Source: Candidatus Thorarchaeota archaeon
Lineage (GTDB): Archaea; Asgardarchaeota; Thorarchaeia; Thorarchaeales; Thorarchaeaceae
DNA: 64,000 nucleotides
Assembly: GCA_011364985.1 (NCBI GenBank)
Contig: RDOC01000003.1
Coordinates: 1-64,000 of the forward strand
Direction of reading: 5' to 3'
How positions within the stretch are numbered: the stretch's first letter is position 1; each line of letters begins with the position of its first letter. Shown piece by piece: positions 10,494-58,694 of this stretch. The notes under the pieces were generated by a model that was not told the origin of the DNA, did not search any database, and worked only from the letters and a program-made list of their open reading frames with translations. Position numbers and translations under genes: made by a program.

Positions 10494-10943
10494 ATGATGA
10501 GTAAAATCAAGAAGATCATTTTTGAAGAGAAGTGGAAAGGGCTGGGGAGTATCTACGCCTTCACTTATGCGTGCCTAGTGGCATATTTGGAAGCAATGTA
10601 CGGCAAACAAGATGTTGATAAATTCCTAGATTTTATGGCAGACCAAGCAAAGCCCTTGTACGCTCCTCTGAAAGGGAAAAGTGTTGAAGAGGCATCCGAC
10701 ATGTTGTTCAGTGCTGGACAATCCTTCTTTGATATCCTTGATTCGAAAACAGCTTCTGATAGACATTCCATTGTTACATCATGCCTTATGAGAAACTTAT
10801 TGAAAGAAATGCATCTTCGCTCAGATTTGATATGCACTTTCTGCGAACAAGTCCTAAGACCCGCGATCTATGCAGCCTCAGACTATGAAATGCAGATTGA
10901 TAGGACAGCAGGAGAGTGCAAGATATCCCTGAGTCGATCCTAA
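10494..10943 (+). CDS. V4R / ATC-hydrolase-like small Cys-containing protein
   Basis: TSCLM...ICTFCE...GECKI Cys spacing; last gene of the operon. Confidence 0.5.
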   Translation: MMSKIKKIIFEEKWKGLGSIYAFTYACLVAYLEAMYGKQDVDKFLDFMADQAKPLYAPLKGKSVEEASDMLFSAGQSFFDILDSKTASDRHSIVTSCLMRNLLKEMHLRSDLICTFCEQVLRPAIYAASDYEMQIDRTAGECKISLSRS

Positions 10944-42015: not shown

Positions 42016-44019
42016 CTAATTCTCAACCCAAGCAAACTTTCGCTGCAGAGTCCTAGGATATACTCTTTTCCAATCATAGTCCACTTTCTTACACCACGTA
42101 TAGACAACCTTTGGATGAATGTAAGACTTCAGTGAAGTTCCCAAGTTCCACGTCCTACTGGCTTTCGCCAGTGCAAAATCGGTTTCGATCCTGCTCTTAG
42201 CAATCTCAGCCTTTCTTACCTGCTCCTTCATCCGTTCGAGGGCCTTCTCAGCTTGTGCAATTCGTTCAGTAGATTTCTCCTTGAAATCTGCAAGTACTTG
42301 CTGCTGCTTCTCAAGAGATGTTTTGCTCTTGGTGTAACGATCCCTTGTGCGAGAAAGACCCGTTTCTGCATCATCTAGGCGTGCTCGAGTGCGCTCAATA
42401 CTTGTCTGGGCTTCTTCCAGTCGTTCTTTCTTCGTGGTCTTCGCCTTCCTCTTGCTTGTTCTGGTCCTGCGCTTTCGTTCTCGAGCGTTGTCCCACGTGG
42501 TCTTTGCACGGTTTCTCTTCTCACGCCAAGAGAGGACGACTTGCCAGTTCTGATCCATGGTTTTCTTCTTTTTCGCAAGTGAGCTTTGTTTCTTTTCCTG
42601 CATCTGTTTCTCTTTCTTTTTTCTGGCTCGTAGTTTCTTCTTCTGTTCTTGCAGCTTTGCCTTGGTCTTTGTAATTCGCTGCTCAGCTTTCTTGATTCGG
42701 TCAACGTATCTATCAGCGGTACGACTCCAGCCCTTGGGAGCCTGCTTTGTGTGATTCATTATACGAGCTACCTCAAGATTTGCTCTCTTGACAGCAGCTT
42801 TCTTGATGAAATCAGGGTCTGCTTGCTTAGTCTTGCTCTTACGGAGCTCATCTTGCATTGTAAGGGTGGCATGAAAAGTTCTGAACACTTTTGCTGTGAG
42901 ATTCTTGTCCACTTTGCCAAGGAATCTGTTAACATGAGAGCTATTGATTCTAGGGAATAACTGTGCAGGTTTCTTAGGGTCTATCTTTGTCTTTCCTTTG
43001 CGAGACTTGAAGGATGCAATACGCTCCTCGGTTCTCTCATAAAGCTCTCTGAATACATTATAGACATCAAGCGGCATTTCCAGCTCCTTATGCCAAGGAA
43101 CGCTATCCTTGCCCAAGAAATTGAACACGACTGAATTCTTCTTGAAAGTTAGATGCTCAGCTCGAAGGGTTGTTGCTCCGACGGTGTCAGCCTCGTCTGG
43201 ATCTTTCTCATCACCCACTCTGAGACTCAGAGCATCTATGAGGTAGCATGCCGCAGCAACCATTCTTGTTTTGTAATCCTCAGAATGAATTCCCTCCATG
43301 ATGTGCGCCCGTATAGCATCGATCTTTTTGGCAACCTTCATTGCCTTGTCATATTTCTCTGCCTCACGTTCTTGCTTTATGGGGCTGCTATCATGTAGCC
43401 ACAGGTACTTGACCTTTCCAGTGAGTTCATCAACCCACTTGGCAATCCACATTGAATCAGAAGCCCAAACAATCTCATCCCAATCACCTTCAGGAACGGG
43501 CGCATCAGGACTCAGATTCAACGTTATGTCTTTATGCGTCACGCCCTTCTTCCAGCGGCCTCTCAGGGGGTGCTCGCCTCGCCCCATAAATATCCCTGAT
43601 GGTTCTGTCTGATAGCTTCCAAGCTCCATACGTTCCCCATCAACTATGGCATAGCCGTACTCCTCCTTTAGACGCTCGCGCTCAACCTTTCGAGCCTCTC
43701 TTTGTGCTTTCTTCTCTTCCTTCGTCATTGCCTCCTTCGTAGCACGCTCCTGCTCAACGAATTCAATGATTTCTGAGAAGTCGATTTCATCAACGGACAA
43801 TGGGGAAGTTGTCTCCAGGGCTTTAGAGAAGTCAGTCATGAAGTTCTCACAAAAAATGGGGTCCTCGACGTATGGAGTTCCTAGCTTTCGCACCCAAGCA
43901 ATTGCCATCTCTTCTTGGAGCCGAGTTAATGCTTTCTTCTGACCATGAACAGTAATATGAAACCCCTTGGATTCGGGTGGTTCTAGGACAATGATGCCGC
44001 GGTGTACAAGAGACTCCAT
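42016..44019 (-). CDS. top1: Eukaryote-type DNA topoisomerase IB with a very long linker
   Basis: EPSGIFMGRGEHPLRG, LRVGDEK...ADTVG, FLGKDS, AKVFRTF, NH, TSLKSYIHP (catalytic Tyr). Confidence 0.95.
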   Translation of the reverse strand: MESLVHRGIIVLEPPESKGFHITVHGQKKALTRLQEEMAIAWVRKLGTPYVEDPIFCENFMTDFSKALETTSPLSVDEIDFSEIIEFVEQERATKEAMTKEEKKAQREARKVERERLKEEYGYAIVDGERMELGSYQTEPSGIFMGRGEHPLRGRWKKGVTHKDITLNLSPDAPVPEGDWDEIVWASDSMWIAKWVDELTGKVKYLWLHDSSPIKQEREAEKYDKAMKVAKKIDAIRAHIMEGIHSEDYKTRMVAAACYLIDALSLRVGDEKDPDEADTVGATTLRAEHLTFKKNSVVFNFLGKDSVPWHKELEMPLDVYNVFRELYERTEERIASFKSRKGKTKIDPKKPAQLFPRINSSHVNRFLGKVDKNLTAKVFRTFHATLTMQDELRKSKTKQADPDFIKKAAVKRANLEVARIMNHTKQAPKGWSRTADRYVDRIKKAEQRITKTKAKLQEQKKKLRARKKKEKQMQEKKQSSLAKKKKTMDQNWQVVLSWREKRNRAKTTWDNARERKRRTRTSKRKAKTTKKERLEEAQTSIERTRARLDDAETGLSRTRDRYTKSKTSLEKQQQVLADFKEKSTERIAQAEKALERMKEQVRKAEIAKSRIETDFALAKASRTWNLGTSLKSYIHPKVVYTWCKKVDYDWKRVYPRTLQRKFAWVEN

Positions 44020-44513: not shown

Positions 44514-44530
44514 GCGGCCATAGTCTAGGG
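44514..44530 (+). repeat. 5' fragment of a tRNA-Gly (left island boundary)
   Basis: GCGGCCATAGTCTAGGG, 15/17 identical to the 5' end of tRNA-Gly(TCC) at 48803; its first 7 nt pair perfectly with TGGCCGC at 58684-58690. Confidence 0.6.
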
Positions 44531-44646
44531 CGCTCGGAGTTACCGTTTTTTGTCTTGGGTATCGTGTCCATTTCCGGCATTCAGCTCGTCCTCTCTGAGC
44601 TAAGGACTTATATCATCACCAGAATATCCATAGTCGGTGGTATGGA

Positions 44647-44901
44647 ATGGCCTCTGTATTGGGTGGCATAGCAAAGGGTCTAGCTAAGCTATTGTCAAAG
44701 GTCGAATTCTGGCTCGCTTTGATAATCTTGGCCGTCATTGTGTTCTTTGGGCTACTGATTTCAAATATTGCCCTCGTTGGAATAGAACATCCCGAAGCAT
44801 TTCCCGTAGTTGCTGGAATTGGTGTGTGGATAATTCAGATTCTATTCCTGTTTGCACTAGTTGCATTCCTATTGTATTTCGCTTGCAAACTCATCAAATA
44901 A
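44647..44901 (+). CDS. Small 2-TM protein
   Basis: Two hydrophobic helices; GGTGGT RBS. Confidence 0.55.
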   Translation: MASVLGGIAKGLAKLLSKVEFWLALIILAVIVFFGLLISNIALVGIEHPEAFPVVAGIGVWIIQILFLFALVAFLLYFACKLIK

Positions 44902-45015
44902 ACCTCTGCCGGTTTCGGGTTGCGTTTCTTCTCGGAGTGAGTTAGGTATAAGTTCAAAAGACTGCCTAACCACACTCAGTATGTAAACAGCATCGCAGAT
45001 GGACTACAGGATTCC

Positions 45016-46332
45016 ATGGAGAAATCAGACATCATGCATGAAACACAGAACGAGAGTTCGGAATCTGAAAAACGAAAAGCAATCATACGGCAGGTTACCC
45101 TAAGGGAGTTCGACAAAGACCAGAACCAGAAAGAGCAAGATGTTTCTCTGCGGGATCTCGTTGATTTTCCGTCCACAACATACAGTACCTTTGGCATCTA
45201 CAACTACCCTGCGAAGTTCATCCCTCATGTTGTCAACTATGTCCTTGAGAACTACGGGGAGGAGGGGATGACAGTCTTCGACCCATTTGCAGGTTGTGGC
45301 ACCGTCGGACTTGCATCTCGTATCTATGGGCATGGCTACGAACTCTGGGATCTAAATCCCATTCTAGAACTGCTGCATCGAGTAGCGATAGCCGCGCCTG
45401 TCAATATCGACATTGTATCCCTTGTGGATCATGTTCTTGAATATGAGGAATCATATATCCCAAAATGGTCAAACTTTGACTACTGGTTTGCAGAAGACCT
45501 TCAGAATCTTCTTGCACAATCTTGGGGATTCTATCACGCACTAGAAGACGAAAGTGTGAGGGATTTCCTTGCTGTCCCGCTCCTTAAGGTAAGTAGACAC
45601 TTCTCGTATGACGATATGGGTCGTATGAAGCTATCGAAGTCCCCGAAGTCAAAGGCCCGTGTGAAAGAGATTTTGAAACAGGACTGGAAATGGTTGTTCC
45701 GTTCGATGCTCATCGATGAGCTCAATGATTTGCACAAGAAGCAGAAGGAATATCAATCACTCAACCCCGTCGATGTAGAGGCAACTATACGTGCAGGTGT
45801 GGACTCTCTCAAGGAGAGCCTTCGAGAAGACCGTGATATTCTCATCACCTCTCCTCCGTATCTTCAGTCACAGGAGTATATGAGGCAGGCAAAGATGGAC
45901 CTGTTCTGGCTTGGATACTCCGATAAGGAAGTAAAACAGCTTAGCAAGATGGAAATACCCTATCGAGATTTGCATGAGATAGACATCAAATCTGAAACAT
46001 ACAGACGAGTGAGGAAAGTCATAGGTGAAGAGCATATTCAGGACGTCTATGACAACTATTTCCGGGGTGTGACTCAGTGTCTTGAGCGACTGTCAACAGA
46101 CATCTCGACTTACCTCTTCTTCTTCGTTGGAAGGTCAAGTATGAGGGGCAGACCTGTCCCCATCGACACGATACTAACTGAACACTTCACCCAATTGGGC
46201 TGGACGCATGAGAGAACACTAGTGGATACTATTGTTTCACGGCGGATGTTCTCATATGGTGTCAATCCCGCCACAAATCAGCGAGATGTGAGGACCAAAA
46301 CAGAGCATCTAATCGTCCTTAAGAGACCTTAA
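45016..46332 (+). CDS. DNA N4-cytosine methyltransferase (alpha motif order)
   Basis: YPAKFIP, DPFAGCGT (motif I) precedes TSPPY (motif IV) with a long intervening region. Confidence 0.85.
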   Translation: MEKSDIMHETQNESSESEKRKAIIRQVTLREFDKDQNQKEQDVSLRDLVDFPSTTYSTFGIYNYPAKFIPHVVNYVLENYGEEGMTVFDPFAGCGTVGLASRIYGHGYELWDLNPILELLHRVAIAAPVNIDIVSLVDHVLEYEESYIPKWSNFDYWFAEDLQNLLAQSWGFYHALEDESVRDFLAVPLLKVSRHFSYDDMGRMKLSKSPKSKARVKEILKQDWKWLFRSMLIDELNDLHKKQKEYQSLNPVDVEATIRAGVDSLKESLREDRDILITSPPYLQSQEYMRQAKMDLFWLGYSDKEVKQLSKMEIPYRDLHEIDIKSETYRRVRKVIGEEHIQDVYDNYFRGVTQCLERLSTDISTYLFFFVGRSSMRGRPVPIDTILTEHFTQLGWTHERTLVDTIVSRRMFSYGVNPATNQRDVRTKTEHLIVLKRP

Positions 46333-46367
46333 GAAGTTGGAGCGCTCCGAATAATCAGAGGATAGTC

Positions 46368-46877
46368 ATGGGCCGGGTGACCGATCTCAATATCACTGGC
46401 AAGGATGAGAGTGCCTTTGCAGCAGACATGGGTATGGCACACGAGTTTCTAGTAACTGCAATACTAATTCGGCTTGGTTTTGAAGTCGGTGTTATGCAAG
46501 TTTCGAGAACCCCGTATGATCTCTGGCTTCTTGCATACGACCGGCCCGATGGCAACAGTGTTTCCTTGCGGGTTCAGATAAAGACAGTTTCTAAGGGTGG
46601 CACCATCAAACTCACAGGTGGAACCCGTGGGGGCATAGACCGCGAGTACAAGAGTGACGTGAAAGAATACAAGTACAGCACCGAGCATAGCGACCTACTC
46701 ATTGGGGTTGACAGGAATACATTCGATTTGTATTTGGTACCGACAAGCTTTCTTGACGATTGGGGGAAGTCCAAGGCTGTGTCACTGCTTAAGCCCTTAA
46801 AGAACAACTGGGACTTGCTGATGAACTGGAATGATGAATTCATTATCTCACTTCGGAATGATTTGATCCAGTCATGA
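46368..46877 (+). CDS. Small PD-(D/E)xK endonuclease (putative restriction partner)
   Basis: G..HE, PYDL, RVQIKT motifs; directly follows the MTase. Confidence 0.75.
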   Translation: MGRVTDLNITGKDESAFAADMGMAHEFLVTAILIRLGFEVGVMQVSRTPYDLWLLAYDRPDGNSVSLRVQIKTVSKGGTIKLTGGTRGGIDREYKSDVKEYKYSTEHSDLLIGVDRNTFDLYLVPTSFLDDWGKSKAVSLLKPLKNNWDLLMNWNDEFIISLRNDLIQS

Positions 46878-46982
46878 AGCAGTTATGGTTGGCAGGTGTT
46901 TTAGCACTATCCAGTCTATCGAAAGCATGAGGGCCCAATATCTTCGGCTTCAGCTTATTGTCGATTTGGCTTACACTTTCTT

Positions 46983-48326
46983 CTATGCTTTCAGGCTTAG
47001 AACGAATTGGTCAAATTGAGCAGGACCAATAATCTTAAAGTCCAATTCTTGAAAGAAGGATGCGAAATCCTCATTGAGAGAACTAGTTGCAGAAGAAACA
47101 TCTTCATCAAGGTTCCAGACCAATATGGCCCGGCTGACGTTGCGGCCGTTAGCAACGCACGAACGAACGTGTTTCTCAATCTGTTGTACAGTCTTCCTTA
47201 GCTCCTGTGTGACTGCAGTCCTATCGTCTATAGTACGCTTTCGGAGGACTTTGCATTCCACAAGCGTGTCCTTCACGAGGAAGTCGATTTCTCTCCCTCC
47301 CGCGTATTGATTGCACTCGAACGGTATTTCCTCACTCTTAAGCATCCATGCCAAGTACACGGAGAGGAAACCATCCTTACACAGAAGCGCCTTCTTGAAG
47401 TTTTCAGAGGGTTCATAGAGGGCCGAGAATGAATAGGGTTGCTTGCAGGTAAGGCAGTGATACTTGGTCATCTTATCAGGGGCAGCCCTACCATGTAGTT
47501 CGACATAGGATGGACTCTCAAGAGCGCAGCTATCACACCATAGGATTGCACCCTCGAGGTCTATGAGTTTGTGCAGATAGAGGGCATTCATCAGATTGAA
47601 GTATTCATCATACTCCATATCGGCATTCTGAAGAACACTGCGATGCCATGCCACAGAAATAAGTAGTAGAGGCAATCTCAGATTTGGCATGATTCTTGAG
47701 AATGATCCGAGTAGCCCCATTTTATCGCTCTCGAAATGTTTTCTTAGGGCCGATGCAACCTTCTCTGCTTTTTCCGCCACAATGCTGGACGTGTCGTCGA
47801 TGTAAGGGGATCCTTCTTTGCCAGCCGATGTCAACGCGGATGTAATGAACTCCTGAATATCTCCGAGTTTCTCCTTCATGAGTTGATAATTGAAATTCGG
47901 GCTGCTGATCAAATCAACGACGTCTTTGTTGGATCTGGCTGCATGAATCAAGATATAGGCAATTATATCAAGGAAGTCCGAATACTGCTTAGTTTCAGGA
48001 CCAAGTCCGAGATTCTCCATTATCCTCCTACTAATATCCTGTTGCATCGTCATTTCAGCAAGATACTCAACAACTCTTGTTCTCTCGGCAGGGACATAAG
48101 TGTCGATATGGAACTCACCCGATAGCGGGAACGCATGCATAAGATGTTCTCCCTCGATTCCAAACATGTCGGTGTGGTGCGTGAAAAGAAGCCGCCTGTA
48201 ACTCTCTTCGCGTCCCACTGATTGCATGAAGACATCCAGCTGTTGATTCCCCTTCAGTATGTTCATTATCTCTTCCACAGTAGGTCTATACATGAGATCA
48301 TATCCTTCGAACAGTGGACCTTGCAT
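46983..48326 (-). CDS. Zn-finger + C-terminal PD-(D/E)xK nuclease-like protein
   Basis: CDSC...CLTC; REIDFLVKDTLVECK..QQI. Confidence 0.6.
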   Translation of the reverse strand: MQGPLFEGYDLMYRPTVEEIMNILKGNQQLDVFMQSVGREESYRRLLFTHHTDMFGIEGEHLMHAFPLSGEFHIDTYVPAERTRVVEYLAEMTMQQDISRRIMENLGLGPETKQYSDFLDIIAYILIHAARSNKDVVDLISSPNFNYQLMKEKLGDIQEFITSALTSAGKEGSPYIDDTSSIVAEKAEKVASALRKHFESDKMGLLGSFSRIMPNLRLPLLLISVAWHRSVLQNADMEYDEYFNLMNALYLHKLIDLEGAILWCDSCALESPSYVELHGRAAPDKMTKYHCLTCKQPYSFSALYEPSENFKKALLCKDGFLSVYLAWMLKSEEIPFECNQYAGGREIDFLVKDTLVECKVLRKRTIDDRTAVTQELRKTVQQIEKHVRSCVANGRNVSRAILVWNLDEDVSSATSSLNEDFASFFQELDFKIIGPAQFDQFVLSLKA

Positions 48327-48802
48327 TATGTGAATTCAAATCTCAAGATTGTTGAGTAATCTTGGACAGGAGTTGGGGTGTGATGAAATTCTTTCTTGGT
48401 ACCCTCAGGAGCTTCGATACAGCGCCTACATCGTTCATGGTATGTAGACTAATCAACCTTCTCGTAGGTCTTTGATGATTGAACCGTTTGCTGGCATTGT
48501 CCTCTCGGAGGCTTTAATTAGAACCTACTCCCGAGAATCCCACCCTTCCACGGACCATCCGATCTGGGTGGTGCAGTTGGCCACTATGAACTGAAGATAG
48601 TGGCCTTCCACAGATTCGTTCGGTTGACCCGGCATCACTGTATCCAACTCATGATACAAGCCTTCCACTAACGGTCCGCATGATGAGGAAACAATATGCT
48701 TAAATTTCCAGCTCGAACAGCCGTAGATTAGAGGCCCGAAATCACTTCCTTGTAAGGAAAGATAATTCGAGCCTTTCGCTAACAGTCTGTGAGTGGACAC
48801 CT

Positions 48803-48877
48803 GCGGCCGTTGTCTAGGGGTTAGGATGCAGCCCTTCCAAGGCTGGGGCCCGGGTTCAAATCCCGGCGGCCGCACCA
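48803..48877 (+). tRNA. tRNA-Gly(TCC), intron-less
   Basis: GCGGCCG/CGGCCGC acceptor, CAGCC-CTTCCAA-GGCTG arm, TTCAAAT, ACCA. Confidence 0.95.
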
Positions 48878-49300
48878 CATCATAGCCCATAGAACATGGC
48901 TGAAGTGAATGAACCCCACCTACGGACTTCTGTGTTCCATCCGTCTTCTGCCCGATGTCGCCATCAACTCCTGGAGCCACCCAGTAGCAAGCAAAAGCAT
49001 TGGCTGCAATCATCGAGACACGGTCCCTCCTACAGCCCTGACTTCTTTCTCCTGCTTTATTCCAGTCGCATCTTTCCTGGGAGCAGTGAGCCTTTCCACA
49101 GCATTTTCCACGGCACGGTCATCATCGCCATCCCCGTCCTCGTCACCGAATTCAAGGACACTCGTCTGAGCTGAGCGAACCACCGCGGACTCCCTCGGGC
49201 TTGATGCACTACCCTTGCGAGGGAGTGAGGACTTCTGTTTAGGGGAACGAGCCCCCCTAACAGCCTTCGGGACTGAGCCCAGCCTCCGCTCGGGAGTGGC
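48878..49300 (-). ncRNA. Candidate omega-RNA region overlapping the TnpB 3' end
   Basis: Clustered hairpins (49207-49227, 49261-49275, ~48885-48902) and a GGGGTTCATTCAC right-end-like motif at 48917-48905; boundaries approximate. Confidence 0.4.
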
Positions 49301-50692
49301 CCACCGCCCTAGTCCATTCTCACTCCAAAGTGAAGGAATGAGCGTGATAAGTCGACGCGCTATGTTCAGGGAACCGTTGCGGTCCGCGTTTGTGCGGAAC
49401 CCACAGGTGTGGCACACGAAGAGAGACTGCCTCGGTCGGATTCCCTGATGCCCGCACTTCCAACAGGTGATGGAGGTCCAGTTCTCCGGGATCACATGGA
49501 AACGACTTTGTTTACCCTCTGTCCGCCAACCGAGTTGTTCGAGGCCGTGCTTCAGCGTGCGCGTCACCCGCCCGAAGCACCATCTGTGCATAAGGCCTCG
49601 AAACCGCTTTCCCTGATAGTTGCCCTTGCGGGCCGTGTTGCGGATGCCCTTGAGTCGACCGATGGCCACATGCACGACATACCGCTCACTGAGCCCCCCT
49701 ATGTATGAGAGAAGCCAACTCACCGTGAGCCTATCATACTCCTTGGACACATTCTCGCGCTTCGACCGAAGCCCCTTAAGTTTCCGAACAACATTGTCAT
49801 ATCGAAGCCCCCGGTCCCTGCGCGTGTCAGCCTCGTGCTGGAGATTAGCCACCTGCCGGTCGTATCGCCGCATGAGTCTGACCTTGTCATGTTGGACGAA
49901 ATAGCGGGTTTCCGAAACACGCGTAGGCGTCAGCAACGTCGTGCACACCGCCCTGTTAATCCCGAGGTCGATACCAAGAATCGCCGGGGGAAGGCCCCGC
50001 TTCTCCACCATGGTTTCAGGAATCCGGATGGCCACAGCGGCCCACCACTTTCCTCGCCTATCGGTGAAGACCTGCACGCTCTTCTCATTCCCGCGTTCAA
50101 GCTGCTGGAGATGGAAGGGCGCCGTCTTCAGGGGCACAGTCAATCTATCATGCACCTGCCTGCCCTCTGCGACCGAGTCCAATGAGTCGCGGAGCTCCAG
50201 CCACCATGTGGCCACGGTATTCTCATGCTTTACAAGCCTAGCGCGATACGGAATGAAGATTCGTCTGGGAATTCGCCTGTCCCGATTGACCTGACTGGGG
50301 CGGGAATGTCTTCCCCCACCCCTCCGAAGAGCCAGATAACTCTCATAGTTCGCTGCAGCCACCCTCCGACACTCGGAGAGTTCGTTAGCCGATATCCTCG
50401 GGAAGCGCGCTTTGAGGTCATGCTCAACAATCAACCTCTGCTTGCCATCTCCAGAGACCCGTTCGGCTGTCATAGTCAGGGTATGCAGCTTGCTCTCATC
50501 GATTCGCTTTCTGTTCACCCCCCTCAAGAGCTGTTCCTCGTTCTCCTCGATAATCCTGAAGAACGCCCTGATGACTCTGGTGTCTCGGCCCACCATCTGG
50601 CGCAGCCGCTGTTGCGCCCTCGTGGTCATCATCTCCCAGTTGATGGGAATTTTGACCGTAATCACTGGTTGCTGGTTTTTCACCATAGCCAT
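49010..50692 (-). CDS. tnpB: TnpB/Fanzor-like RNA-guided nuclease with rearranged RuvC-II
   Basis: GIDLG (D242), VAIGRL (G345 at the canonical Glu position), IPENWTS (E403), CWKC..CHTC, NADRNGSLNI (D437). Confidence 0.88.
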   Translation of the reverse strand: MAMVKNQQPVITVKIPINWEMMTTRAQQRLRQMVGRDTRVIRAFFRIIEENEEQLLRGVNRKRIDESKLHTLTMTAERVSGDGKQRLIVEHDLKARFPRISANELSECRRVAAANYESYLALRRGGGRHSRPSQVNRDRRIPRRIFIPYRARLVKHENTVATWWLELRDSLDSVAEGRQVHDRLTVPLKTAPFHLQQLERGNEKSVQVFTDRRGKWWAAVAIRIPETMVEKRGLPPAILGIDLGINRAVCTTLLTPTRVSETRYFVQHDKVRLMRRYDRQVANLQHEADTRRDRGLRYDNVVRKLKGLRSKRENVSKEYDRLTVSWLLSYIGGLSERYVVHVAIGRLKGIRNTARKGNYQGKRFRGLMHRWCFGRVTRTLKHGLEQLGWRTEGKQSRFHVIPENWTSITCWKCGHQGIRPRQSLFVCHTCGFRTNADRNGSLNIARRLITLIPSLWSENGLGRWATPERRLGSVPKAVRGARSPKQKSSLPRKGSASSPRESAVVRSAQTSVLEFGDEDGDGDDDRAVENAVERLTAPRKDATGIKQEKEVRAVGGTVSR

Positions 50693-50941
50693 CGCTCCTA
50701 CAATATAAAGTTCTGACCTGTTCAGTCAGTGGAGTTCATTCGCAACCTTGTGCTTGCAAGACTGTATTGAACTCCTACAATTAGTAGGTATGAAACAATA
50801 TAAAGTTATGAAGCAATTTAAATAAACGAAAAGTTGAATTAGTCAGTCCATTCCTTCTTTATCAAAATCTAAGTAGAAAAAGATTTAATCTGCTTTTGAT
50901 ATAGTCACAAAAAAGTCTATAGTTTTCTACACGAAAGGAGA

Positions 50942-53900
50942 GTGGCGCGCATGAGAGGGAGCCGCGGCCCTCAGGTGAAACCGTATCCGAAACATCCGAA
51001 CAGGGTGCTGGCACGAGCGATGAGGACAGGCTTATCCACGGCGGTATACCTGCAGCGAACCATCCGGAATAGAATCACCCGCCACCTGTACGATAGCTCC
51101 CGCGATATACTCCACAGGTACACCGAGGCTTACCAAATCGCGAAGGCCTCGGGCGTGCCGGACTTCACCCACATCATAAAAGCGGAACACAACATCAGGA
51201 AGAACGGCTTGGACATGCTGGAGGAGAACGCAGCCCTCTACGGGTGCACAGAAACAGTGCGGGCGCGACGCTGGTACGAGGAAGTGGGCCCCCTGAACCA
51301 GCGGCTCAATGTCGGGGGCGCGGTGCTGCGGGAGATGGGTGCAATCTACTACCCTATGGAGCGGCCGCAGCCGCTCTTCGACGACAACGGCGAACACATC
51401 GGTTACGGCTATCCTGGTGACTCACGCTGGCCTGCCTATCCTCCTGTTCACCGGTTCCTGAGCGAGCTGGACTTCATGGACGCCCTCCGCCAGCACATCC
51501 AAATTCTAAACACCGATGCGTACATCCACGATGTGTCGGTTCGGGACATACGCCGATACAGCAACCTCCTTATCCTCCGTGCACGAACCTACCTTGACTA
51601 CCTGTACACCGAGCACGAGTATGGCTCGGCAGGGTTCAGAAACGGGACGGTCCGCCTGCTGCGGGAAATCCGCAATGATATCTCCAAGCACCATAGTGTC
51701 CGTGTAGGCGAACTGGAATCCGTGTCGTTGCATGGTAGACATACACGTCTAGTCTTCAGCATAGACTTTTTCAAAGAGCAGCTGGCAAAGGCTCGGGAGA
51801 GCGGTATCAATCCAGCTGTGACTGAGGAGCTTTCACGAATCCTGACCGGTGGGTCTGCGGTCTTGGAGGAGGAAGGGAAGGAAGCTCCCTGCCTAACCAG
51901 TGACGATGTGAAACACTTGTGGGAGAGGGCTGTGCGAAGGACAAAGAAGGTGGGAGCCCACGTTCACAGGCGCATTACCGATATGTTCGACCGGTTTCTG
52001 AATGTGCAGAGGGCCATCCGCAACGATGACCGCGATAGTTTTGGAGGTGGTTTCAGGATTGTCGCAGAGATGCCACTGGGAACCGAACTGGGGAAAGGCA
52101 GAGCGGATCTGGTGGTGTTCAGGAGGGAAACCGCGCCCGCAGGTCTACGTACCCTCTGGCGCCCAGTAATGGTGGTGGAGATTAAGAGCCGCTGTGGGTT
52201 CAAGTGGTATATGGTGCCTGAACGAAGGTCTTCTCTATCCAGGAAGAGGTACGGAATGGTGCAGCGGGTGGTCCCACGGTTCAGGCTCTCTCTGCGCCCT
52301 CTCAGTCCCAGCGAGTGGGAGCAGGTCGTCGATGGCATTCCCGAGCCGAACACTGTGATCCAGCTCGATACCTATGCGGAAGCCCTGTCTGAAGCCTTCG
52401 GGTCGATTGCGCATCTTGACAGTCCTCCGAGAGTGATTCGGGCAACACTCGTCATTGACCCCACCGATGAGAACAGAAAGAGCAGGTCTATGATACAGAG
52501 TTTCCTCCTGAGTGCTCTTGAATCTTGCCTGACGGAGGACCTGTCCCAAAGCAGGACCGCCTATAATGTTTCGAGAGATGGACTCAGACCACGCATGGCA
52601 CTCGTGGTCCATAGTCAGGAATACTCTCCAAACTACGGACAACCGCAGGTGCCACAGGAATGGAAACCGCCCTATGACCCACTGATTGGTGCTGGCACCA
52701 GAGCCCGACGCTTCATTCTCTATGTTTCCGCGGCGTCTCCAACGTCAGCAGGGCTTTCGGCCGCTTGGATTGCAAGACACCATCACGGTTTGCAGACAAT
52801 CCATGAGTTTCGAGAGGCGTCTCCTGACCTGCGTGTTTTTTGGCTTGACATGGCCAATGAGTTCCCAACGCCCACTCTCGCGGAGGCGAGGTTGCGGGCT
52901 CGAGGACGGGAGGCTGAGAACAGTCTGTCAGACGCTGTCAAAGTAACTTTCCGCTCCATAGAGTTCAAACAGCTTTTTGCTGATATCCAGACGTATCTCT
53001 ACAGCGACGGCCCGATGGTGGACCTGTCGGCTGTATTGGGAGACCAAGTGAAACAGCCCCGCATGCTTGTTGTGTCAGGCTGGGACATTATTGACAGCTC
53101 AACGCCCTCACCCTACCGAACCCGCATGAACAGACTGCTGGCTGAGATAGTAGACCAATTGCCTGATGATGAGCAAACCATCATCCTGTGGCTTTCAAGG
53201 CCGGTGAAATATGAGAGAAGAACACCAATCTACTCAACCAATTGTTTCATCCCTGTTCGGGACACCTCTCCCCTCCTAGGCGAACTGGATGAAATCATCT
53301 GGAATCTGCCATGCGGACCTGAGCAAGTCATCTATCCTGATTCTTGGCAGCGCCCGTCCACCTCCAAAAGCCCCATGTTTGATGATATCAGGATCGTGGT
53401 TGCCCAGTCTCTTCAAGGGTTCGAAACCTCGCTCATCCATATCCCGGCTCTCAGACATTGGTCTGCCAAATTCAGAACCGAAGAATACAATCACTCCAAG
53501 AAAGAGATACCGGAACCACGGGAACATGCCGTGCCCGGGGCAGGGATACGAGAGAGAATCAGGTCGCTGGCATTGACCCTAATTCCCTGGTTGGTTGACC
53601 TGTGGCCCGATACACATCTTTCACCTGATGTGAACCTTTCCGATTCTCTCCGTAACTCCTTAGATGAGATTCACGACTCTGCAGAAGGCCTGACAGTTAC
53701 AAGACGTTCTCTCTCCCGCGAACCCACAGATGTCCCAAGCCTGTTGAATAGACTACAGTATCGTCCTCCCCGAACAAGAGGAGGCAAGGCATTTGCCGAC
53801 ATCTTTCTCGGACAGATCAATGCTCACCGACTATATCGTGCTCGCCAGCAGAGCAAGTCCAAACCGAGGCCCTCATATCCTAAGACTTTCGAGCCCCCCA

Positions 53901-55519
53901 AGCTTAGGATTGCTAGCTTTGGCCAGATGGTCTGCTCAGAGGACGCTGACCAGCCGCTCTACATAGTGGCATTGGAGGACCCAGAGAATCCTGCCAGAGT
54001 TCTTGTGGGATTCCTAAACAGCTACGTACAGATTCGCACTGACGGACTGCAGTGGGCTGAGAGTCGTATCTCGGAGCAGGTAGATGATATCCAGCAGGTC
54101 ATGAGCTCAGGCCATCGTTTCTCACTGGCTCTTCAGCAAGACGACGAAGGCTGGCTGCTCTGGCAGAAGGACTCAGAGAGATCAGATTGGACTTTTGAAA
54201 GCACTATTGACATCATTAGGGGAAGAACGATTGGCTCGACCGCAATGATTCGGGCAATCAGGTACCTTCCCTCCTCCGACTCCGTGACTCAATATACCAG
54301 TGACATTCGCTTTCCCGCGAATCTGACCGGCCGACTCGACAAGGCTGTCGCTCGCATCTTGAAACATATTCGGCAGCAGAAGGAGGTTTCAGTCAAGCTG
54401 TCGTGGACGGATAATGGCTGCACGGTGGACTTCAAGACCGGGGATGATGTGCTGGACACAGTAGAACATCTCTATACCTCCAATCTTGTCGAAACCTTAA
54501 CTCTCACACGAGGAGGGTTTCCAGTGAACCTCTCATCGGGCCATCTAGTCGTTTGGGATCGGTTTCGTGACATTGACTATGGAGAAGTATCTCTCCTGAT
54601 AGATGTAAGTCAGACTTTTATTCCAGCTACGACCGAGATTGGTTTGCCTGCAAAACTCTCAGATCTGTTGTGCCTTCCCGAGGGAGAGGAGCTTGAGTTC
54701 CAGCTCTCGCACGAGCGAGATGAATGTCCGCTCTTCTCAGGACAAGGAGAAGACCATGGCAGGTGCTGGCGACTCTCTCTTGTGGGTGAGAATGAGGCGG
54801 TATCCAGGATTTTTTGTGGTTTCCTTACAGACCGAGAGGTATTCCTCCGCATCGGCTCCAAGAGTGTGGTGTTCGGGTCGAAGGTTTACCCAATCAAGGT
54901 AGATGTTCCATCAGCACTGCAACAGGAGGGTATGGTTTTTCGGGAGAGTCCACTCATTCGCAAGATACTCCAGAGGAACGGTGTTCGGGCGTCTCCACTG
55001 AAACCAGGAGCGTATCTACAGGCCGCCCAGCAAGAGTGGGAGATATCTGTAACTATCAGGGATGACTGGCTGACGTGGGTTGCAGTATCCACTCTAACAG
55101 GAGAAAATTGGAAGAACCGAGCTTTCACCTACGAACTGCAAGTTGTCCGAGAGCTCTCCGATATCTTGGATGAGCTCTGGGGATATATCATATCGGAGAT
55201 TCCCGAAAAGTTCATTCATAATTCAGAACTCCAAAAAGCCAGATTGAGAGGCATTCTTGAGAAACGAGGCCTGAGTGATGCCTTACTGCAAGTCAGGCTG
55301 GAAGCGACCATGAAACGGAGAATCCTCACTGTGGAAGCGCGACGAACAGGGAATGGTGATGAGATGATTGACAGCATTTCGTGGGAACTCCCACGTAGAG
55401 TCAAGGGGGACCATCTCATAGACAGTATTGTGCAACGCCTGGAGGAGGGTACATGGGCAAGATTCGACGTAGTGAATAAAGAGGAATTCTTCGAAACACT
55501 AGACCGGCTTCTTGATTGA
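50942..55519 (+). CDS. 1525-aa protein with a PD-(D/E)xK nuclease domain and a degenerate RecA-like domain
   Basis: AEMPL...GRADLVVF (D389), VVEIKS (E413/K415), QLDTYA; later VFWLDMANEF and MLVVSGWD. Confidence 0.65.
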   Translation: MARMRGSRGPQVKPYPKHPNRVLARAMRTGLSTAVYLQRTIRNRITRHLYDSSRDILHRYTEAYQIAKASGVPDFTHIIKAEHNIRKNGLDMLEENAALYGCTETVRARRWYEEVGPLNQRLNVGGAVLREMGAIYYPMERPQPLFDDNGEHIGYGYPGDSRWPAYPPVHRFLSELDFMDALRQHIQILNTDAYIHDVSVRDIRRYSNLLILRARTYLDYLYTEHEYGSAGFRNGTVRLLREIRNDISKHHSVRVGELESVSLHGRHTRLVFSIDFFKEQLAKARESGINPAVTEELSRILTGGSAVLEEEGKEAPCLTSDDVKHLWERAVRRTKKVGAHVHRRITDMFDRFLNVQRAIRNDDRDSFGGGFRIVAEMPLGTELGKGRADLVVFRRETAPAGLRTLWRPVMVVEIKSRCGFKWYMVPERRSSLSRKRYGMVQRVVPRFRLSLRPLSPSEWEQVVDGIPEPNTVIQLDTYAEALSEAFGSIAHLDSPPRVIRATLVIDPTDENRKSRSMIQSFLLSALESCLTEDLSQSRTAYNVSRDGLRPRMALVVHSQEYSPNYGQPQVPQEWKPPYDPLIGAGTRARRFILYVSAASPTSAGLSAAWIARHHHGLQTIHEFREASPDLRVFWLDMANEFPTPTLAEARLRARGREAENSLSDAVKVTFRSIEFKQLFADIQTYLYSDGPMVDLSAVLGDQVKQPRMLVVSGWDIIDSSTPSPYRTRMNRLLAEIVDQLPDDEQTIILWLSRPVKYERRTPIYSTNCFIPVRDTSPLLGELDEIIWNLPCGPEQVIYPDSWQRPSTSKSPMFDDIRIVVAQSLQGFETSLIHIPALRHWSAKFRTEEYNHSKKEIPEPREHAVPGAGIRERIRSLALTLIPWLVDLWPDTHLSPDVNLSDSLRNSLDEIHDSAEGLTVTRRSLSREPTDVPSLLNRLQYRPPRTRGGKAFADIFLGQINAHRLYRARQQSKSKPRPSYPKTFEPPKLRIASFGQMVCSEDADQPLYIVALEDPENPARVLVGFLNSYVQIRTDGLQWAESRISEQVDDIQQVMSSGHRFSLALQQDDEGWLLWQKDSERSDWTFESTIDIIRGRTIGSTAMIRAIRYLPSSDSVTQYTSDIRFPANLTGRLDKAVARILKHIRQQKEVSVKLSWTDNGCTVDFKTGDDVLDTVEHLYTSNLVETLTLTRGGFPVNLSSGHLVVWDRFRDIDYGEVSLLIDVSQTFIPATTEIGLPAKLSDLLCLPEGEELEFQLSHERDECPLFSGQGEDHGRCWRLSLVGENEAVSRIFCGFLTDREVFLRIGSKSVVFGSKVYPIKVDVPSALQQEGMVFRESPLIRKILQRNGVRASPLKPGAYLQAAQQEWEISVTIRDDWLTWVAVSTLTGENWKNRAFTYELQVVRELSDILDELWGYIISEIPEKFIHNSELQKARLRGILEKRGLSDALLQVRLEATMKRRILTVEARRTGNGDEMIDSISWELPRRVKGDHLIDSIVQRLEEGTWARFDVVNKEEFFETLDRLLD

Positions 55520-55550
55520 GAGCAGTTCAGGTGGTCGCCTCCAAACCTGC

Positions 55551-55581
55551 GACCCGGGTTCGAATCCTGGTGGCGGCACCA
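55551..55581 (+). repeat. tRNA-Gly 3' direct repeat (att-like)
   Basis: GACCCGGGTTCGAATCCTGGTGGCGGCACCA. Confidence 0.8.
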
Positions 55582-55595
55582 TTCTTAATATCCTG

Positions 55596-58541: not shown

Positions 58542-58663
58542 AATATCTCAACTATCTTCTTTGTATAATGCATCCCCCTCAAGCGCGCAATGCAAATACA
58601 GAACTACTTCATGTATATAGCCTAATCAAGTTTATTCTAATTCTAAGTATTAATTGGAATCAT

Positions 58664-58694
58664 GACCCGGGTTCGAATCCCGGTGGCCGCACCA
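58664..58694 (+). repeat. tRNA-Gly 3' direct repeat (right island boundary)
   Basis: GACCCGGGTTCGAATCCCGGTGGCCGCACCA; housekeeping genes resume immediately afterwards. Confidence 0.85.

What the first reader, a model, noticed from the sequence alone, without database searches (positions are those of the whole stretch)
49010..50692. TnpB with the Fanzor-type rearranged catalytic site in a probable Asgard archaeon
Seen: RuvC-I D242 and RuvC-III D437 are intact. The canonical RuvC-II Glu is Gly (VAIG345RL), and a Glu appears 58 residues later (IPE403NWTS), seven residues before the CxxC zinc finger. No TnpA (Y1 or serine) gene is nearby. Established: this Gly substitution plus relocated Glu is the signature of eukaryotic Fanzors and a minority of prokaryotic TnpBs. 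Inference: an active, large (560-aa) Fanzor-like nuclease, relevant to Fanzor origins or to convergent rearrangement, and possibly domesticated.
Basis: partly seen in the sequence, partly recalled or inferred. Interest (0 to 1): 0.8.

Follow-up and report, generated by a model that had tools for sequence, protein, structure and literature searches.

The report
TnpB nuclease of Asgard Cas1-TnpB element
The gene is a real, probably active RNA-guided DNA cutter (TnpB) of an already known subclass with a shifted catalytic glutamate. It is not a special link to eukaryotic Fanzors but one half of a catalogued, untested two-gene mobile element of Thorarchaeota that sits in a glycine-tRNA gene.

Summary
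The 560-aa ORF at 49010-50692 has D242, G345 (in place of the RuvC-II Glu), E403, two CxxC pairs and D437, and all are invariant in 50 relatives.

The Gly plus relocated Glu is the published signature of a large prokaryotic TnpB class (TnpB2 / RIIr-5, with the NADxN motif). Almost all of the nearest 50%-identity clusters listed carry it, so it is inherited, not a local or convergent event. By profile and by fold the protein is no nearer to Fanzor than to Cas12f or TnpB.

The gene is not domesticated. It lies head-to-head with a 1525-aa protein whose N-terminus folds like the Cas1 catalytic domain, followed by a Cas4/NucS-like nuclease. That pairing recurs in 37 of 52 Thorarchaeota loci. The pair is bracketed by copies of the tRNA-Gly 3' part, and three congeners have the site empty.

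A roughly 420-nt structured RNA with strong covariation overlaps the 3' end of the gene and ends in GTTCATTCAC. This matches the aCas1-TnpB loci catalogued by Altae-Tran et al. 2023.

The scan has already reported the same two-gene unit on other genomes. Catalytic geometry could not be measured, and the guide was not identified.

The parts
49010..50692 (-). tnpB coding sequence, 560 aa. Catalytic candidates are D242, E403 and D437; G345 occupies the canonical RuvC-II Glu position; the zinc finger is C410/C413/C427/C430. Residues about 469-560 are predicted disordered.
48905..49325 (-). Conserved structured RNA (candidate omega-RNA scaffold, about 420 nt). It overlaps the last ~105 codons of tnpB and runs ~105 nt past the stop codon. 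It has 19 helices and 105 predicted pairs.
   Evidence: Synonymous-codon identity rises from ~0.40 to 0.64-0.76 in codons 451-540. Conservation continues after the stop across paralogs only ~50% identical. RNAalifold plus pair counts give 95.8% of cells paired and 58 pairs changed on both sides, against 27.8 +/- 3.1 in shuffles (0 of 500) and at most 16 in slid controls.
48905..48914 (-). Terminal motif GTTCATTCAC, where conservation ends. It is one mismatch from the GTTCACTCA motif reported downstream of aCas1-linked tnpB genes.
   Evidence: (48 of 54 loci have the motif 80-125 nt after the stop)
48915..48925 (-). Variable segment V1 (11 nt), between the conserved GGAACACAGAAGT and the motif. 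It differs between copies.
   Evidence: it corresponds in position to the 'hypervariable region' described in PMC10691335
48878..48904 (-). Variable segment V2 (27 nt), between the motif and the tRNA 3' end. This is the candidate guide position by analogy with classical TnpB. No target was found.
48803..48877 (+). Intact tRNA-Gly(TCC), convergent with tnpB. It forms the left boundary of the unit.
   Evidence: the same arrangement is seen in L006/L034, L035, L036, L043 and L106
50693..50941 (.). 249-nt AT-rich divergent spacer between tnpB and the giant gene, with a TATA-like 17-nt direct repeat at 50700-50716 and 50795-50811.
   Evidence: the spacer is 220-307 nt in 35 of 37 paired loci
50942..55519 (+). 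Giant partner gene (1525 aa). Residues ~9-240 have the fold of the Cas1 catalytic alpha-helical domain. Residues ~340-500 form a PD-(D/E)xK nuclease (Cas4/NucS-like; E376, D389, K415, Q474, Y478 conserved). The remaining ~1000 aa are uncharacterised.
55521..55581 (+). Decayed copy of tRNA-Gly positions 14-75. Its last 31 nt are a direct repeat of 48847-48877. It forms the right boundary of the 6.7-kb tnpB/giant unit.
58664..58694 (+). Third copy of the tRNA-Gly 3' end (31 nt), 8 nt from the EMG1 gene. It marks the outer boundary of the whole island.
44514..44530 (+). 5' fragment of a tRNA-Gly next to the topoisomerase IB gene. It marks the other outer boundary of the island.
   Evidence: empty sites are shown

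Best explanation
The ORF encodes the RNA-guided nuclease (TnpB) of a two-gene Thorarchaeota element of the catalogued 'aCas1-TnpB' type. The protein belongs to the large prokaryotic TnpB class in which the RuvC-II glutamate on strand beta-4 is replaced by glycine and a glutamate at the end of beta-5 takes its place. This class is called TnpB2 or RIIr and carries the NADxN RuvC-III motif. The catalytic triad is therefore most likely D242/E403/D437.

The protein most likely binds a guide RNA of about 420 nt. That RNA would be transcribed from the last third of its own gene through the conserved end GTTCATTCAC, and would direct cutting of DNA matching a short variable 3' segment.

The divergent neighbour is a 1525-aa protein with a Cas1-like domain and a Cas4-like nuclease. 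It is the only candidate for moving the element. The 6.7-kb unit lies in a tRNA-Gly(TCC) gene between copies of the tRNA 3' part.

By analogy with IS200/IS605 TnpB, the nuclease probably serves the element's retention or homing rather than the host.

Shown here: family membership, residue conservation, fold, the structured RNA, the pairing with the giant gene, and the insertion with its empty sites. Inferred: nuclease activity, which segment is the guide, what is cut, and that the Cas1-like protein is the integrase.
For: Identity. PF07282 and guided_TnpB match. The AF2 model has a core pLDDT of 80-93. It matches Cas12f and TnpB over its whole core: Foldseek gives 2.6e-14 for 8dzj. VIA-align gives Z 18.0 (rmsd 6.9 A, 367 aligned) for Cas12f, 16.2 (6.9 A, 346) for ISDra2 TnpB and 15.3 (6.4 A, 369) for Fanzor2.

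Catalytic site. D242, G345, E403, D437 and the four Cys are invariant in 50 sequences. G345 lies in strand 339-347, E403 ends strand 398-403, and D437 starts helix 436-451. That is the beta-4 to beta-5 shift described for RIIr-5. E403 and D437 map onto Fanzor2 E467 and D501, and E467A abolishes Fanzor2 cleavage. In one listed cluster that keeps the canonical Glu (P0272), the alternative position is Ala.

Class. Nearly every listed cluster that covers both sites has D-G-E-C4-D; the two exceptions are P0161 (Ser) and P0272.

RNA. Evidence comes from excess synonymous-site conservation and covariation.

Element. The giant's N-terminus matches 12 Cas1/casposase clusters at Z 13.3-9.1 (rmsd 3.6-4.1 A, 153-193 aligned), and the next unrelated hit is Z 6.4. 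Foldseek's top ten rows, and most rows down to rank 18, are Cas1. The head-to-head pairing occurs in 10 of 13 loci from relatives and 37 of 52 loci from Thorarchaeota genomes, with a 220-307 nt spacer in 35 of those 37.

Insertion. There are direct repeats of the tRNA 3' part. In three congeners EMG1, tRNA-Gly and topo IB are direct neighbours. The genome holds a second copy plus three decayed fragments. Copy number is 0-10 among congeners. The motif and variable region match the published description.
Against: No activity data exist for any aCas1-linked TnpB. The distance of E403 from D242/D437 was not measured, and pLDDT around 401-410 is only 67. No guide target was found.

The Cas1 assignment of the partner rests on fold only. 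The Pfam Cas1 model finds nothing and hhalign gives probability 0.9, E 0.059. In that hhalign alignment the position of the Cas1 catalytic His is Tyr in the giant.

The unit has imperfect direct repeats of unequal extent and no inverted repeats. That is unlike casposons and unlike IS200/IS605.

The two full-length copies in this genome are only 53% identical, so there is no sign of recent transposition. The closest relatives all sit at tRNA-Gly, which could partly reflect old vertical inheritance.
Confidence: 0.72

Rival explanations
1. Defence or CRISPR-like reading. The TnpB, its RNA and the Cas1-like/Cas4-like giant form a host-beneficial RNA-guided immunity module, not a selfish transposon. 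The Cas1-like protein would renew the short variable segment of the guide RNA, as in a one-spacer proto-CRISPR.
For: The unit lies in an island of defence genes: a type II methyltransferase, a weak PD-(D/E)xK hit and a Schlafen-APAZ-short Argonaute. Cas1 and Cas4 are the CRISPR adaptation enzymes. Two short segments next to a repeat-like motif vary between otherwise conserved copies. The published note compares the motif with a CRISPR repeat start.
Against: There is no repeat array and no Cas2. V1 is only 10-12 nt. Copies decay into fragments, and the giant is truncated in the second copy, as expected for a selfish element. PADLOC finds no defence family for the giant. Defence islands at tRNA genes also collect mobile elements.
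Confidence: 0.12
2. This is a Fanzor-like nuclease that bears on Fanzor origins or arose by convergent rearrangement, and it may be a domesticated host gene.
For: It has the same Gly/Glu arrangement as Fanzors, with the same Glu-to-Asp spacing as Fanzor2. The host is an Asgard archaeon. An orthologous-looking copy (74% identity) sits at the same tRNA-Gly in another genus.
Against: The rearrangement is shared by nearly all listed nearest clusters, so it was inherited from a large prokaryotic clade. That clade is already published, with an active archaeal member. Profile E-values and fold ranks favour Cas12f/TnpB over Fanzor2. Published work ties Fanzor2 to IS607 TnpBs. Empty sites in congeners, fragments and patchiness argue against domestication.
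Confidence: 0.07
3. Catalytically dead, RNA-guided DNA binder (TldR-like regulator). E403 would be structural, and the protein would only bind DNA.
For: The canonical RuvC-II Glu is missing. Geometry of the alternative Glu was not measured here. Inactivated TnpB lineages are known.
Against: Both Asp and the alternative Glu are invariant. The same arrangement is active in Fanzor2 and in the archaeal TvTnpB. A listed cluster that keeps the canonical Glu lacks the alternative one. The protein is not linked to a host operon.
Confidence: 0.06

Closest known systems
aCas1-associated TnpB loci of Asgard archaea (groups Cas1H-Asgard-1 and -2; Altae-Tran et al. 2023, PMC10691335; Cas1 diversity from Makarova et al. 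2020, cited there)
   Same: The host is an Asgard (Thorarchaeota) archaeon. The tnpB lies next to a Cas1-like gene and the locus is flanked by repeats. A variable stretch downstream of tnpB is followed by a GTTCACTCA-type motif, here GTTCATTCA. Two TnpB size groups (about 558 aa and 588-612 aa) are both paired with giants.
   Different: No defining feature tested here failed. This report adds the tRNA-Gly insertion with empty sites, the extent and covariation of the RNA, and the Cas4-like nuclease after the Cas1-like domain. The published description is computational only, and its figures and supplements could not be read here.
TnpB2 / RIIr-5 class of prokaryotic TnpBs with rearranged RuvC-II, including Thermoplasma volcanium TvTnpB (Jiang et al. 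2023, PMC10530073)
   Same: It has Gly at the canonical Glu position, an alternative conserved Glu before the zinc finger, and the NADxN RuvC-III motif. TvTnpB is an archaeal member shown to cleave in a TAM-dependent way.
   Different: TvTnpB sits in an IS605 element with a Y1 TnpA, whereas this gene has a Cas1-like partner and no TnpA. The shift here is 58 residues, against about 45-50. This protein is larger because of a ~90-aa tail that overlaps the RNA gene.
Fanzor2 of Acanthamoeba polyphaga mimivirus (PDB 9b0l; triad D324/E467/D501)
   Same: It shares the rearranged triad, with an identical 34-residue Glu-to-Asp spacing. The folds are similar: Z 15.3, rmsd 6.4 A, 369 residues aligned.
   Different: Fanzor2 has a eukaryotic-virus host, an IS607 context and an N-terminal extension with an NLS. 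The profile match is only E 1.7e-4. Cas12f chains and ISDra2 TnpB score higher on Z, although ISDra2 (Z 16.2) is within 1 unit and so effectively tied.
Cas12f and ISDra2 TnpB (PDB 8dzj, 7wju, 9nzq, 8h1j)
   Same: These are the best overall fold and profile matches. They share the WED/REC/RuvC/zinc-finger layout.
   Different: They carry the canonical RuvC-II Glu. Cas12f works with CRISPR arrays, and ISDra2 works with a Y1 TnpA.
Casposons (Cas1/casposase-driven elements, some of which target tRNA genes; from general knowledge)
   Same: The candidate integrase is Cas1-like; casposase 6opm matches at Z 10.9, rmsd 4.1 A, 188 aligned. The insertion is at a tRNA gene.
   Different: There is no polymerase B and no inverted terminal repeats. 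The repeats are 31-62 nt and imperfect, not a short exact target duplication. The giant lacks the Cas1 N-terminal beta domain, since the aligned range covers only the Cas1 C-terminal domain.

Membership tests
TnpB (OMEGA RNA-guided nuclease) | Split RuvC-like nuclease domain with an acidic triad plus a C4 zinc finger | tested here: met
   D242, E403 (relocated), D437, and C410/C413/C427/C430 are all invariant. PF07282 scores above its cut-off. NCBIfam guided_TnpB scores 91.6 bits, just under its cut-off of 100.
TnpB (OMEGA RNA-guided nuclease) | TnpB/Cas12f overall fold (WED, REC, RuvC, TNB) | tested here: met
   Foldseek gives 2.6e-14 to Cas12f and 3.9e-9 to ISDra2 TnpB. VIA-align Z is 18.0 to 15.3 over model residues ~8-452.
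TnpB (OMEGA RNA-guided nuclease) | Conserved structured RNA overlapping the 3' end of the gene and ending at the element end | tested here: met
   Expression and processing of the RNA were not tested.
TnpB (OMEGA RNA-guided nuclease) | RNA-guided, TAM-dependent DNA cleavage | not testable with these tools
   Requires biochemistry.
IS200/IS605 or IS607 element | Y1 or serine TnpA in or near the element, with subterminal hairpin ends | tested here: not met
   No TnpA-type Pfam family was found in the neighbours. No Y1_Tnp was found in the 74%-complete genome. The only resolvase is on contig C21.
TnpB2 / RIIr-5 (rearranged RuvC-II) | Canonical RuvC-II Glu replaced by Gly, with an alternative conserved Glu downstream | tested here: met
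   G345 and E403 are invariant. The same pattern is present in nearly all listed nearest clusters that cover both sites.
TnpB2 / RIIr-5 (rearranged RuvC-II) | [quoted passage not shown] | tested here: inconclusive
   Secondary structure places E403 at the end of beta-5. By coordinates it maps to Fanzor2 E467. No model coordinates were available to measure distances.
TnpB2 / RIIr-5 (rearranged RuvC-II) | NADxN motif in RuvC-III ('derived' TnpBs) | tested here: met
   NADRN at 435-439; the motif definition is.
Fanzor | Encoded in a eukaryote or a eukaryotic virus, with an NLS, introns and eukaryotic transposon contexts | tested here: not met
   The host is a Thorarchaeota genome. The gene is uninterrupted and sits in an archaeal context of tRNA, topo IB and EMG1.
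Fanzor | Specific phylogenetic affinity to Fanzor1 or Fanzor2 | tested here: inconclusive
Proxies do not favour it: the profile E-value to Fanzor2 is 1.7e-4, against 2e-14 to a TnpB.
aCas1-TnpB element (Cas1H-Asgard groups) | Adjacent Cas1 homolog | tested here: met
   By fold, the top 12 VIA-align rows are all Cas1 or casposase, Z 13.3-9.1 (rmsd 3.6-4.1 A, 153-193 aligned), followed by a drop to 6.4. Foldseek's top ten rows are Cas1. By sequence it is not detected: Pfam Cas1 gives E > 1, the profile finds nothing in the PDB, and hhalign gives E 0.059.
aCas1-TnpB element (Cas1H-Asgard groups) | Variable region downstream of tnpB followed by a GTTCACTCA motif, with the locus flanked by repeats | tested here: met
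   GTTCATTCA at 48914-48906 is preceded by a variable 11 nt. Direct repeats lie at 48847-48877 and 55551-55581.
Cas1 (for the partner protein) | Conserved Glu/His/Asp metal-binding triad | tested here: inconclusive
   The weak hhalign alignment puts E82, D177 and D180 on the Cas1 Glu and Asp/Glu positions, but Tyr157 on the His position. A nearly invariant H170 lies nearby.
Inactivated TnpB (TldR-like) | Loss of catalytic residues and linkage to a host regulon | tested here: not met
   All triad residues are invariant, and there is no host operon context.

The most novel reading that the evidence does not exclude
The Cas1-like/Cas4-like giant and the TnpB form a minimal adaptive or homing system. 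In one version, the giant installs or renews the short variable segment of the TnpB guide RNA, making a single-spacer proto-CRISPR caught between transposon and immunity. In the other, TnpB cuts empty tRNA-Gly sites, and a circular form of the element carrying one tRNA copy then enters by recombination. The second version would explain the long, imperfect direct repeats and the lack of inverted repeats.
Probability: 0.1. Interest if true: 0.85.

Novelty: new member of a known kind. Interest (0 to 1): 0.3.

Why it matters
The catalytic rearrangement itself is textbook for this TnpB class and adds nothing to the question of Fanzor origins. What makes the locus useful is its cleanliness as a test case. 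It is an intact example of the untested aCas1-TnpB element. Both genes are whole, the boundaries at a tRNA gene are defined, and empty sites exist in congeners. It also has a well-supported guide-RNA scaffold of about 420 nt. If the Cas1-like protein proves to be the integrase, or if it edits the guide, the element would bear on how CRISPR adaptation and RNA-guided nucleases first came together. It could also supply a compact archaeal nuclease for engineering.

Tried and rejected

No Fanzor phylogeny could be built. No Fanzor sequence could be obtained, phmmer of the protein against PDB sequences finds no Fanzor at E <= 1, and SpuFz1 (8gkh) appears in none of the lists.

The viral-contig scan with the family profile found no relatives.

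GTTCACTCA is not enriched in the window as a whole: 23 matches against 19.9 expected. Only its position after tnpB matters.

The 162-aa ORF overlapping the tnpB stop was rejected as a gene. It overlaps the tRNA on the other strand, and its counterpart in the paralog is unrelated.

For the giant protein, Pfam, PADLOC, PDB sequence and profile searches gave nothing. The Pfam Cas1 model gave nothing in the genome. hhalign against nine Asgard Cas1 sequences was not significant.

The search for a guide target failed. V2 has no second match in the genome and does not match the host flank at empty sites.

No inverted terminal repeats were found between the unit's ends.

Rfam found no family other than the tRNA.

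Full report
OBSERVATION

The ORF at 49010-50692 is open only on the minus strand (560 aa). Pfam PF07282 scores above its cut-off. NCBIfam guided_TnpB reaches 91.6 bits against a cut-off of 100. More than 590 homologs, mostly about 555-560 aa, were found, and those that are named are Thorarchaeota or Lokiarchaeota. In 50 of them, down to 42% identity, D242, G345, E403, D437 and all four cysteines are invariant.

FOLD AND ACTIVE SITE

An AlphaFold2 model has mean pLDDT 72, with the core at 80-93 and residues 469-560 disordered. It places D242 in strand 236-243 and G345 in strand 339-347. E403 is the last residue of strand 398-403, and D437 is at the start of helix 436-451. This is the beta-4 to beta-5 relocation described for the RIIr-5 clade of TnpB (PMC10691335).

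The best structural matches are Cas12f (Foldseek 2.6e-14; VIA-align Z 18.0, rmsd 6.9 A, 367 aligned). ISDra2 TnpB follows (Z 16.2, rmsd 6.9 A, 346 aligned), then mimivirus Fanzor2 (Z 15.3, rmsd 6.4 A, 369 aligned).

The Fanzor2 structure has the triad D324/E467/D501 (PMC11832414), and E467A abolishes cleavage (PMC10530073). The family profile aligns its positions 286-443 with Fanzor2 residues 349-509, and the structural alignment ends at 453 against 518. With the identical 34-residue Glu-to-Asp spacing, E403 and D437 fall on E467 and D501. I could not measure distances, because coordinates are not provided. Placement of E403 in the active site is therefore inferred, not shown.

HOW SPECIAL IS THE REARRANGEMENT?

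It is not special. A profile search of 1.84 billion cluster representatives gave 93 clusters at E <= 1e-30 and 434 at E <= 1e-10. Among the listed hits of at least 350 aa that cover both sites, essentially all show D-G-E-C4-D. One cluster has Ser at the Gly position. One (P0272) keeps the canonical Glu and has Ala at the alternative site, which serves as an internal control.

The class is published as TnpB2 / RIIr-5, and the archaeal TvTnpB of that class cleaves DNA. The family profile scores a TnpB chain at 2e-14, AsCas12f at about 1e-11, Fanzor2 at 1.7e-4 and ISDra2 at 0.018. Nothing singles out Fanzor. The rearrangement was inherited from a broad prokaryotic clade rather than arising in this lineage.

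CONTEXT

The 162-aa ORF that overlaps the stop codon is spurious, because it lies on top of tRNA-Gly(TCC) at 48803-48877 on the other strand.

Upstream and divergent, 249 nt away, is a 1525-aa ORF with no Pfam, PADLOC or PDB sequence match. A model of its first 500 residues (pLDDT 84) matches Cas1 and casposase in the top 12 rows of a Foldseek-independent search. Those rows have Z 13.3-9.1 (rmsd 3.6-4.1 A, 153-193 aligned), and model residues ~9-240 align with the Cas1 C-terminal catalytic domain. The next unrelated fold scores Z 6.4. Foldseek's top ten rows, and most rows down to rank 18, are also Cas1. Residues ~340-500 resemble NucS, Cas4 and MGME1 nucleases (Z 5.9-5.1), and E376, D389, K415, Q474 and Y478 are conserved.

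Sequence methods do not see the Cas1 relationship. In the weak hhalign alignment the Cas1 His position is Tyr. The Cas1 fold is therefore supported, but catalytic competence is open.

THE PAIR IS A UNIT

Both full-length tnpB copies of this genome have a giant homolog head-to-head, although the second giant is truncated to 585 aa. The pairing holds in 10 of 13 full-length loci from relatives. It also holds in 37 of 52 full-length loci with enough flank from Thorarchaeota assemblies, and the spacer is 220-307 nt in 35 of those 37.

Copy number among 16 congeners ranges from 0 to 10. This genome also holds three decayed fragments with stop codons.

INSERTION

The 31-nt 3' end of the tRNA (48847-48877) recurs at 55551-55581 and 58664-58694. 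The middle copy extends to tRNA positions 14-75 and starts two bases after the giant's stop codon. The tnpB/giant unit is therefore a 6.7-kb segment between tRNA copies. The next 3.1-kb segment carries a Schlafen-APAZ-short Argonaute.

In three congeners EMG1, tRNA-Gly and topoisomerase IB are immediate neighbours. In the window they are 14.6 kb apart. Five other loci, including the closest relatives (63-76% identity), have a convergent tRNA-Gly(TCC) starting 121-139 nt after the stop codon. One of these (L034, the same locus as L006) is in another genus, and the flanking genes examined there differ from those in the window. This favours site-specific insertion over simple vertical descent. 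No inverted repeats were found, and the direct repeats are imperfect. The integration chemistry is therefore unknown.

GUIDE RNA

Identical-codon frequency among same-residue pairs is about 0.40 over codons 1-450 and 0.64-0.76 over codons 451-540. This is the stretch that encodes the disordered tail.

Nucleotide conservation continues for about 105 nt past the stop codon and ends at GTTCAYTCAC. The motif is present in 48 of 54 loci.

RNAalifold predicts 105 pairs in 19 helices on 13 copies. Of the cells, 95.8% pair. 58 pairs change on both sides, against 27.8 +/- 3.1 in shuffles (0 of 500 reach it) and at most 16 when partners are slid.

A variable 10-12 nt segment precedes the motif and a variable 16-36 nt segment follows it. 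The first fits the 'hypervariable region ... GTTCACTCA' noted for aCas1-TnpB loci. The second has no match elsewhere in the genome or at empty sites. Which segment is the guide remains unknown.

VERDICT

The gene is a probably active member of a known TnpB class. It belongs to the catalogued but experimentally untested aCas1-TnpB element of Asgard archaea. It is neither a Fanzor relative of special standing nor a domesticated gene.

Earlier notes of this scan reached the aCas1-TnpB reading for look-alike units on other genomes. I re-tested the Cas1 fold, the pairing and the tRNA insertion here.

Noticed in passing
window 44514-58694: This 14-kb island is inserted into a tRNA-Gly(TCC) gene. A 5' tRNA fragment lies at 44514, an intact tRNA at 48803-48877, and 3' copies at 55521-55581 and 58664-58694. 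In three congeners topo IB, tRNA-Gly and EMG1 are adjacent.
   Followed up: partly
window 55596-58541 (-): A 981-aa single-chain protein fuses Schlafen/AlbA_2, an APAZ-like region and a short Argonaute (PADLOC pAgo_I 1e-141; Pfam SLFN_AlbA_2). It forms its own 3.1-kb unit between two tRNA 3' copies.
   Followed up: no
window 45016-46877 (+) and 46983-48326 (-): A type II DNA methyltransferase (PADLOC 8e-31) is followed by a 169-aa ORF with a weak PD-(D/E)xK hit (E 0.018), probably a restriction-modification pair. Next to them is a 447-aa ORF with no family match.
   Followed up: no
G000:C21:46998-47390 (+) and G000:C21:49927-52020 (-): The only serine resolvase found in the genome lies about 2.5 kb from another paralog of the giant protein that has no TnpB match next to it.
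   Followed up: no
window 50700-50716 and 50795-50811: A 17-nt direct repeat, ACAATATAAAGTT(C/A)TGA, with a TATA-like core lies in the tnpB/giant divergent spacer. These may be archaeal promoter elements.
   Followed up: no
G000:C15:185012-188705: In the second copy of the unit, tnpB is intact (558 aa, 53% identity) but the giant is cut down to 585 aa. A tRNA-Lys lies about 500 nt downstream, co-directional with tnpB.
   Followed up: partly
L106 (CAZLEV010000002.1) about 2040-2160 and 8754-8880; L033 about 10640-10770: These loci hold extra solitary guide-RNA 3' ends, each abutting a tRNA-Gly copy. One has the same variable 11 nt as the window copy. This suggests tandem accretion or decay of elements at this tRNA.
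   Followed up: no
window 42016-44019 (-): A eukaryote-type topoisomerase IB (three Pfam domains, E 1e-60) lies next to the island, conserved at ~70% identity in congeners.
   Followed up: no
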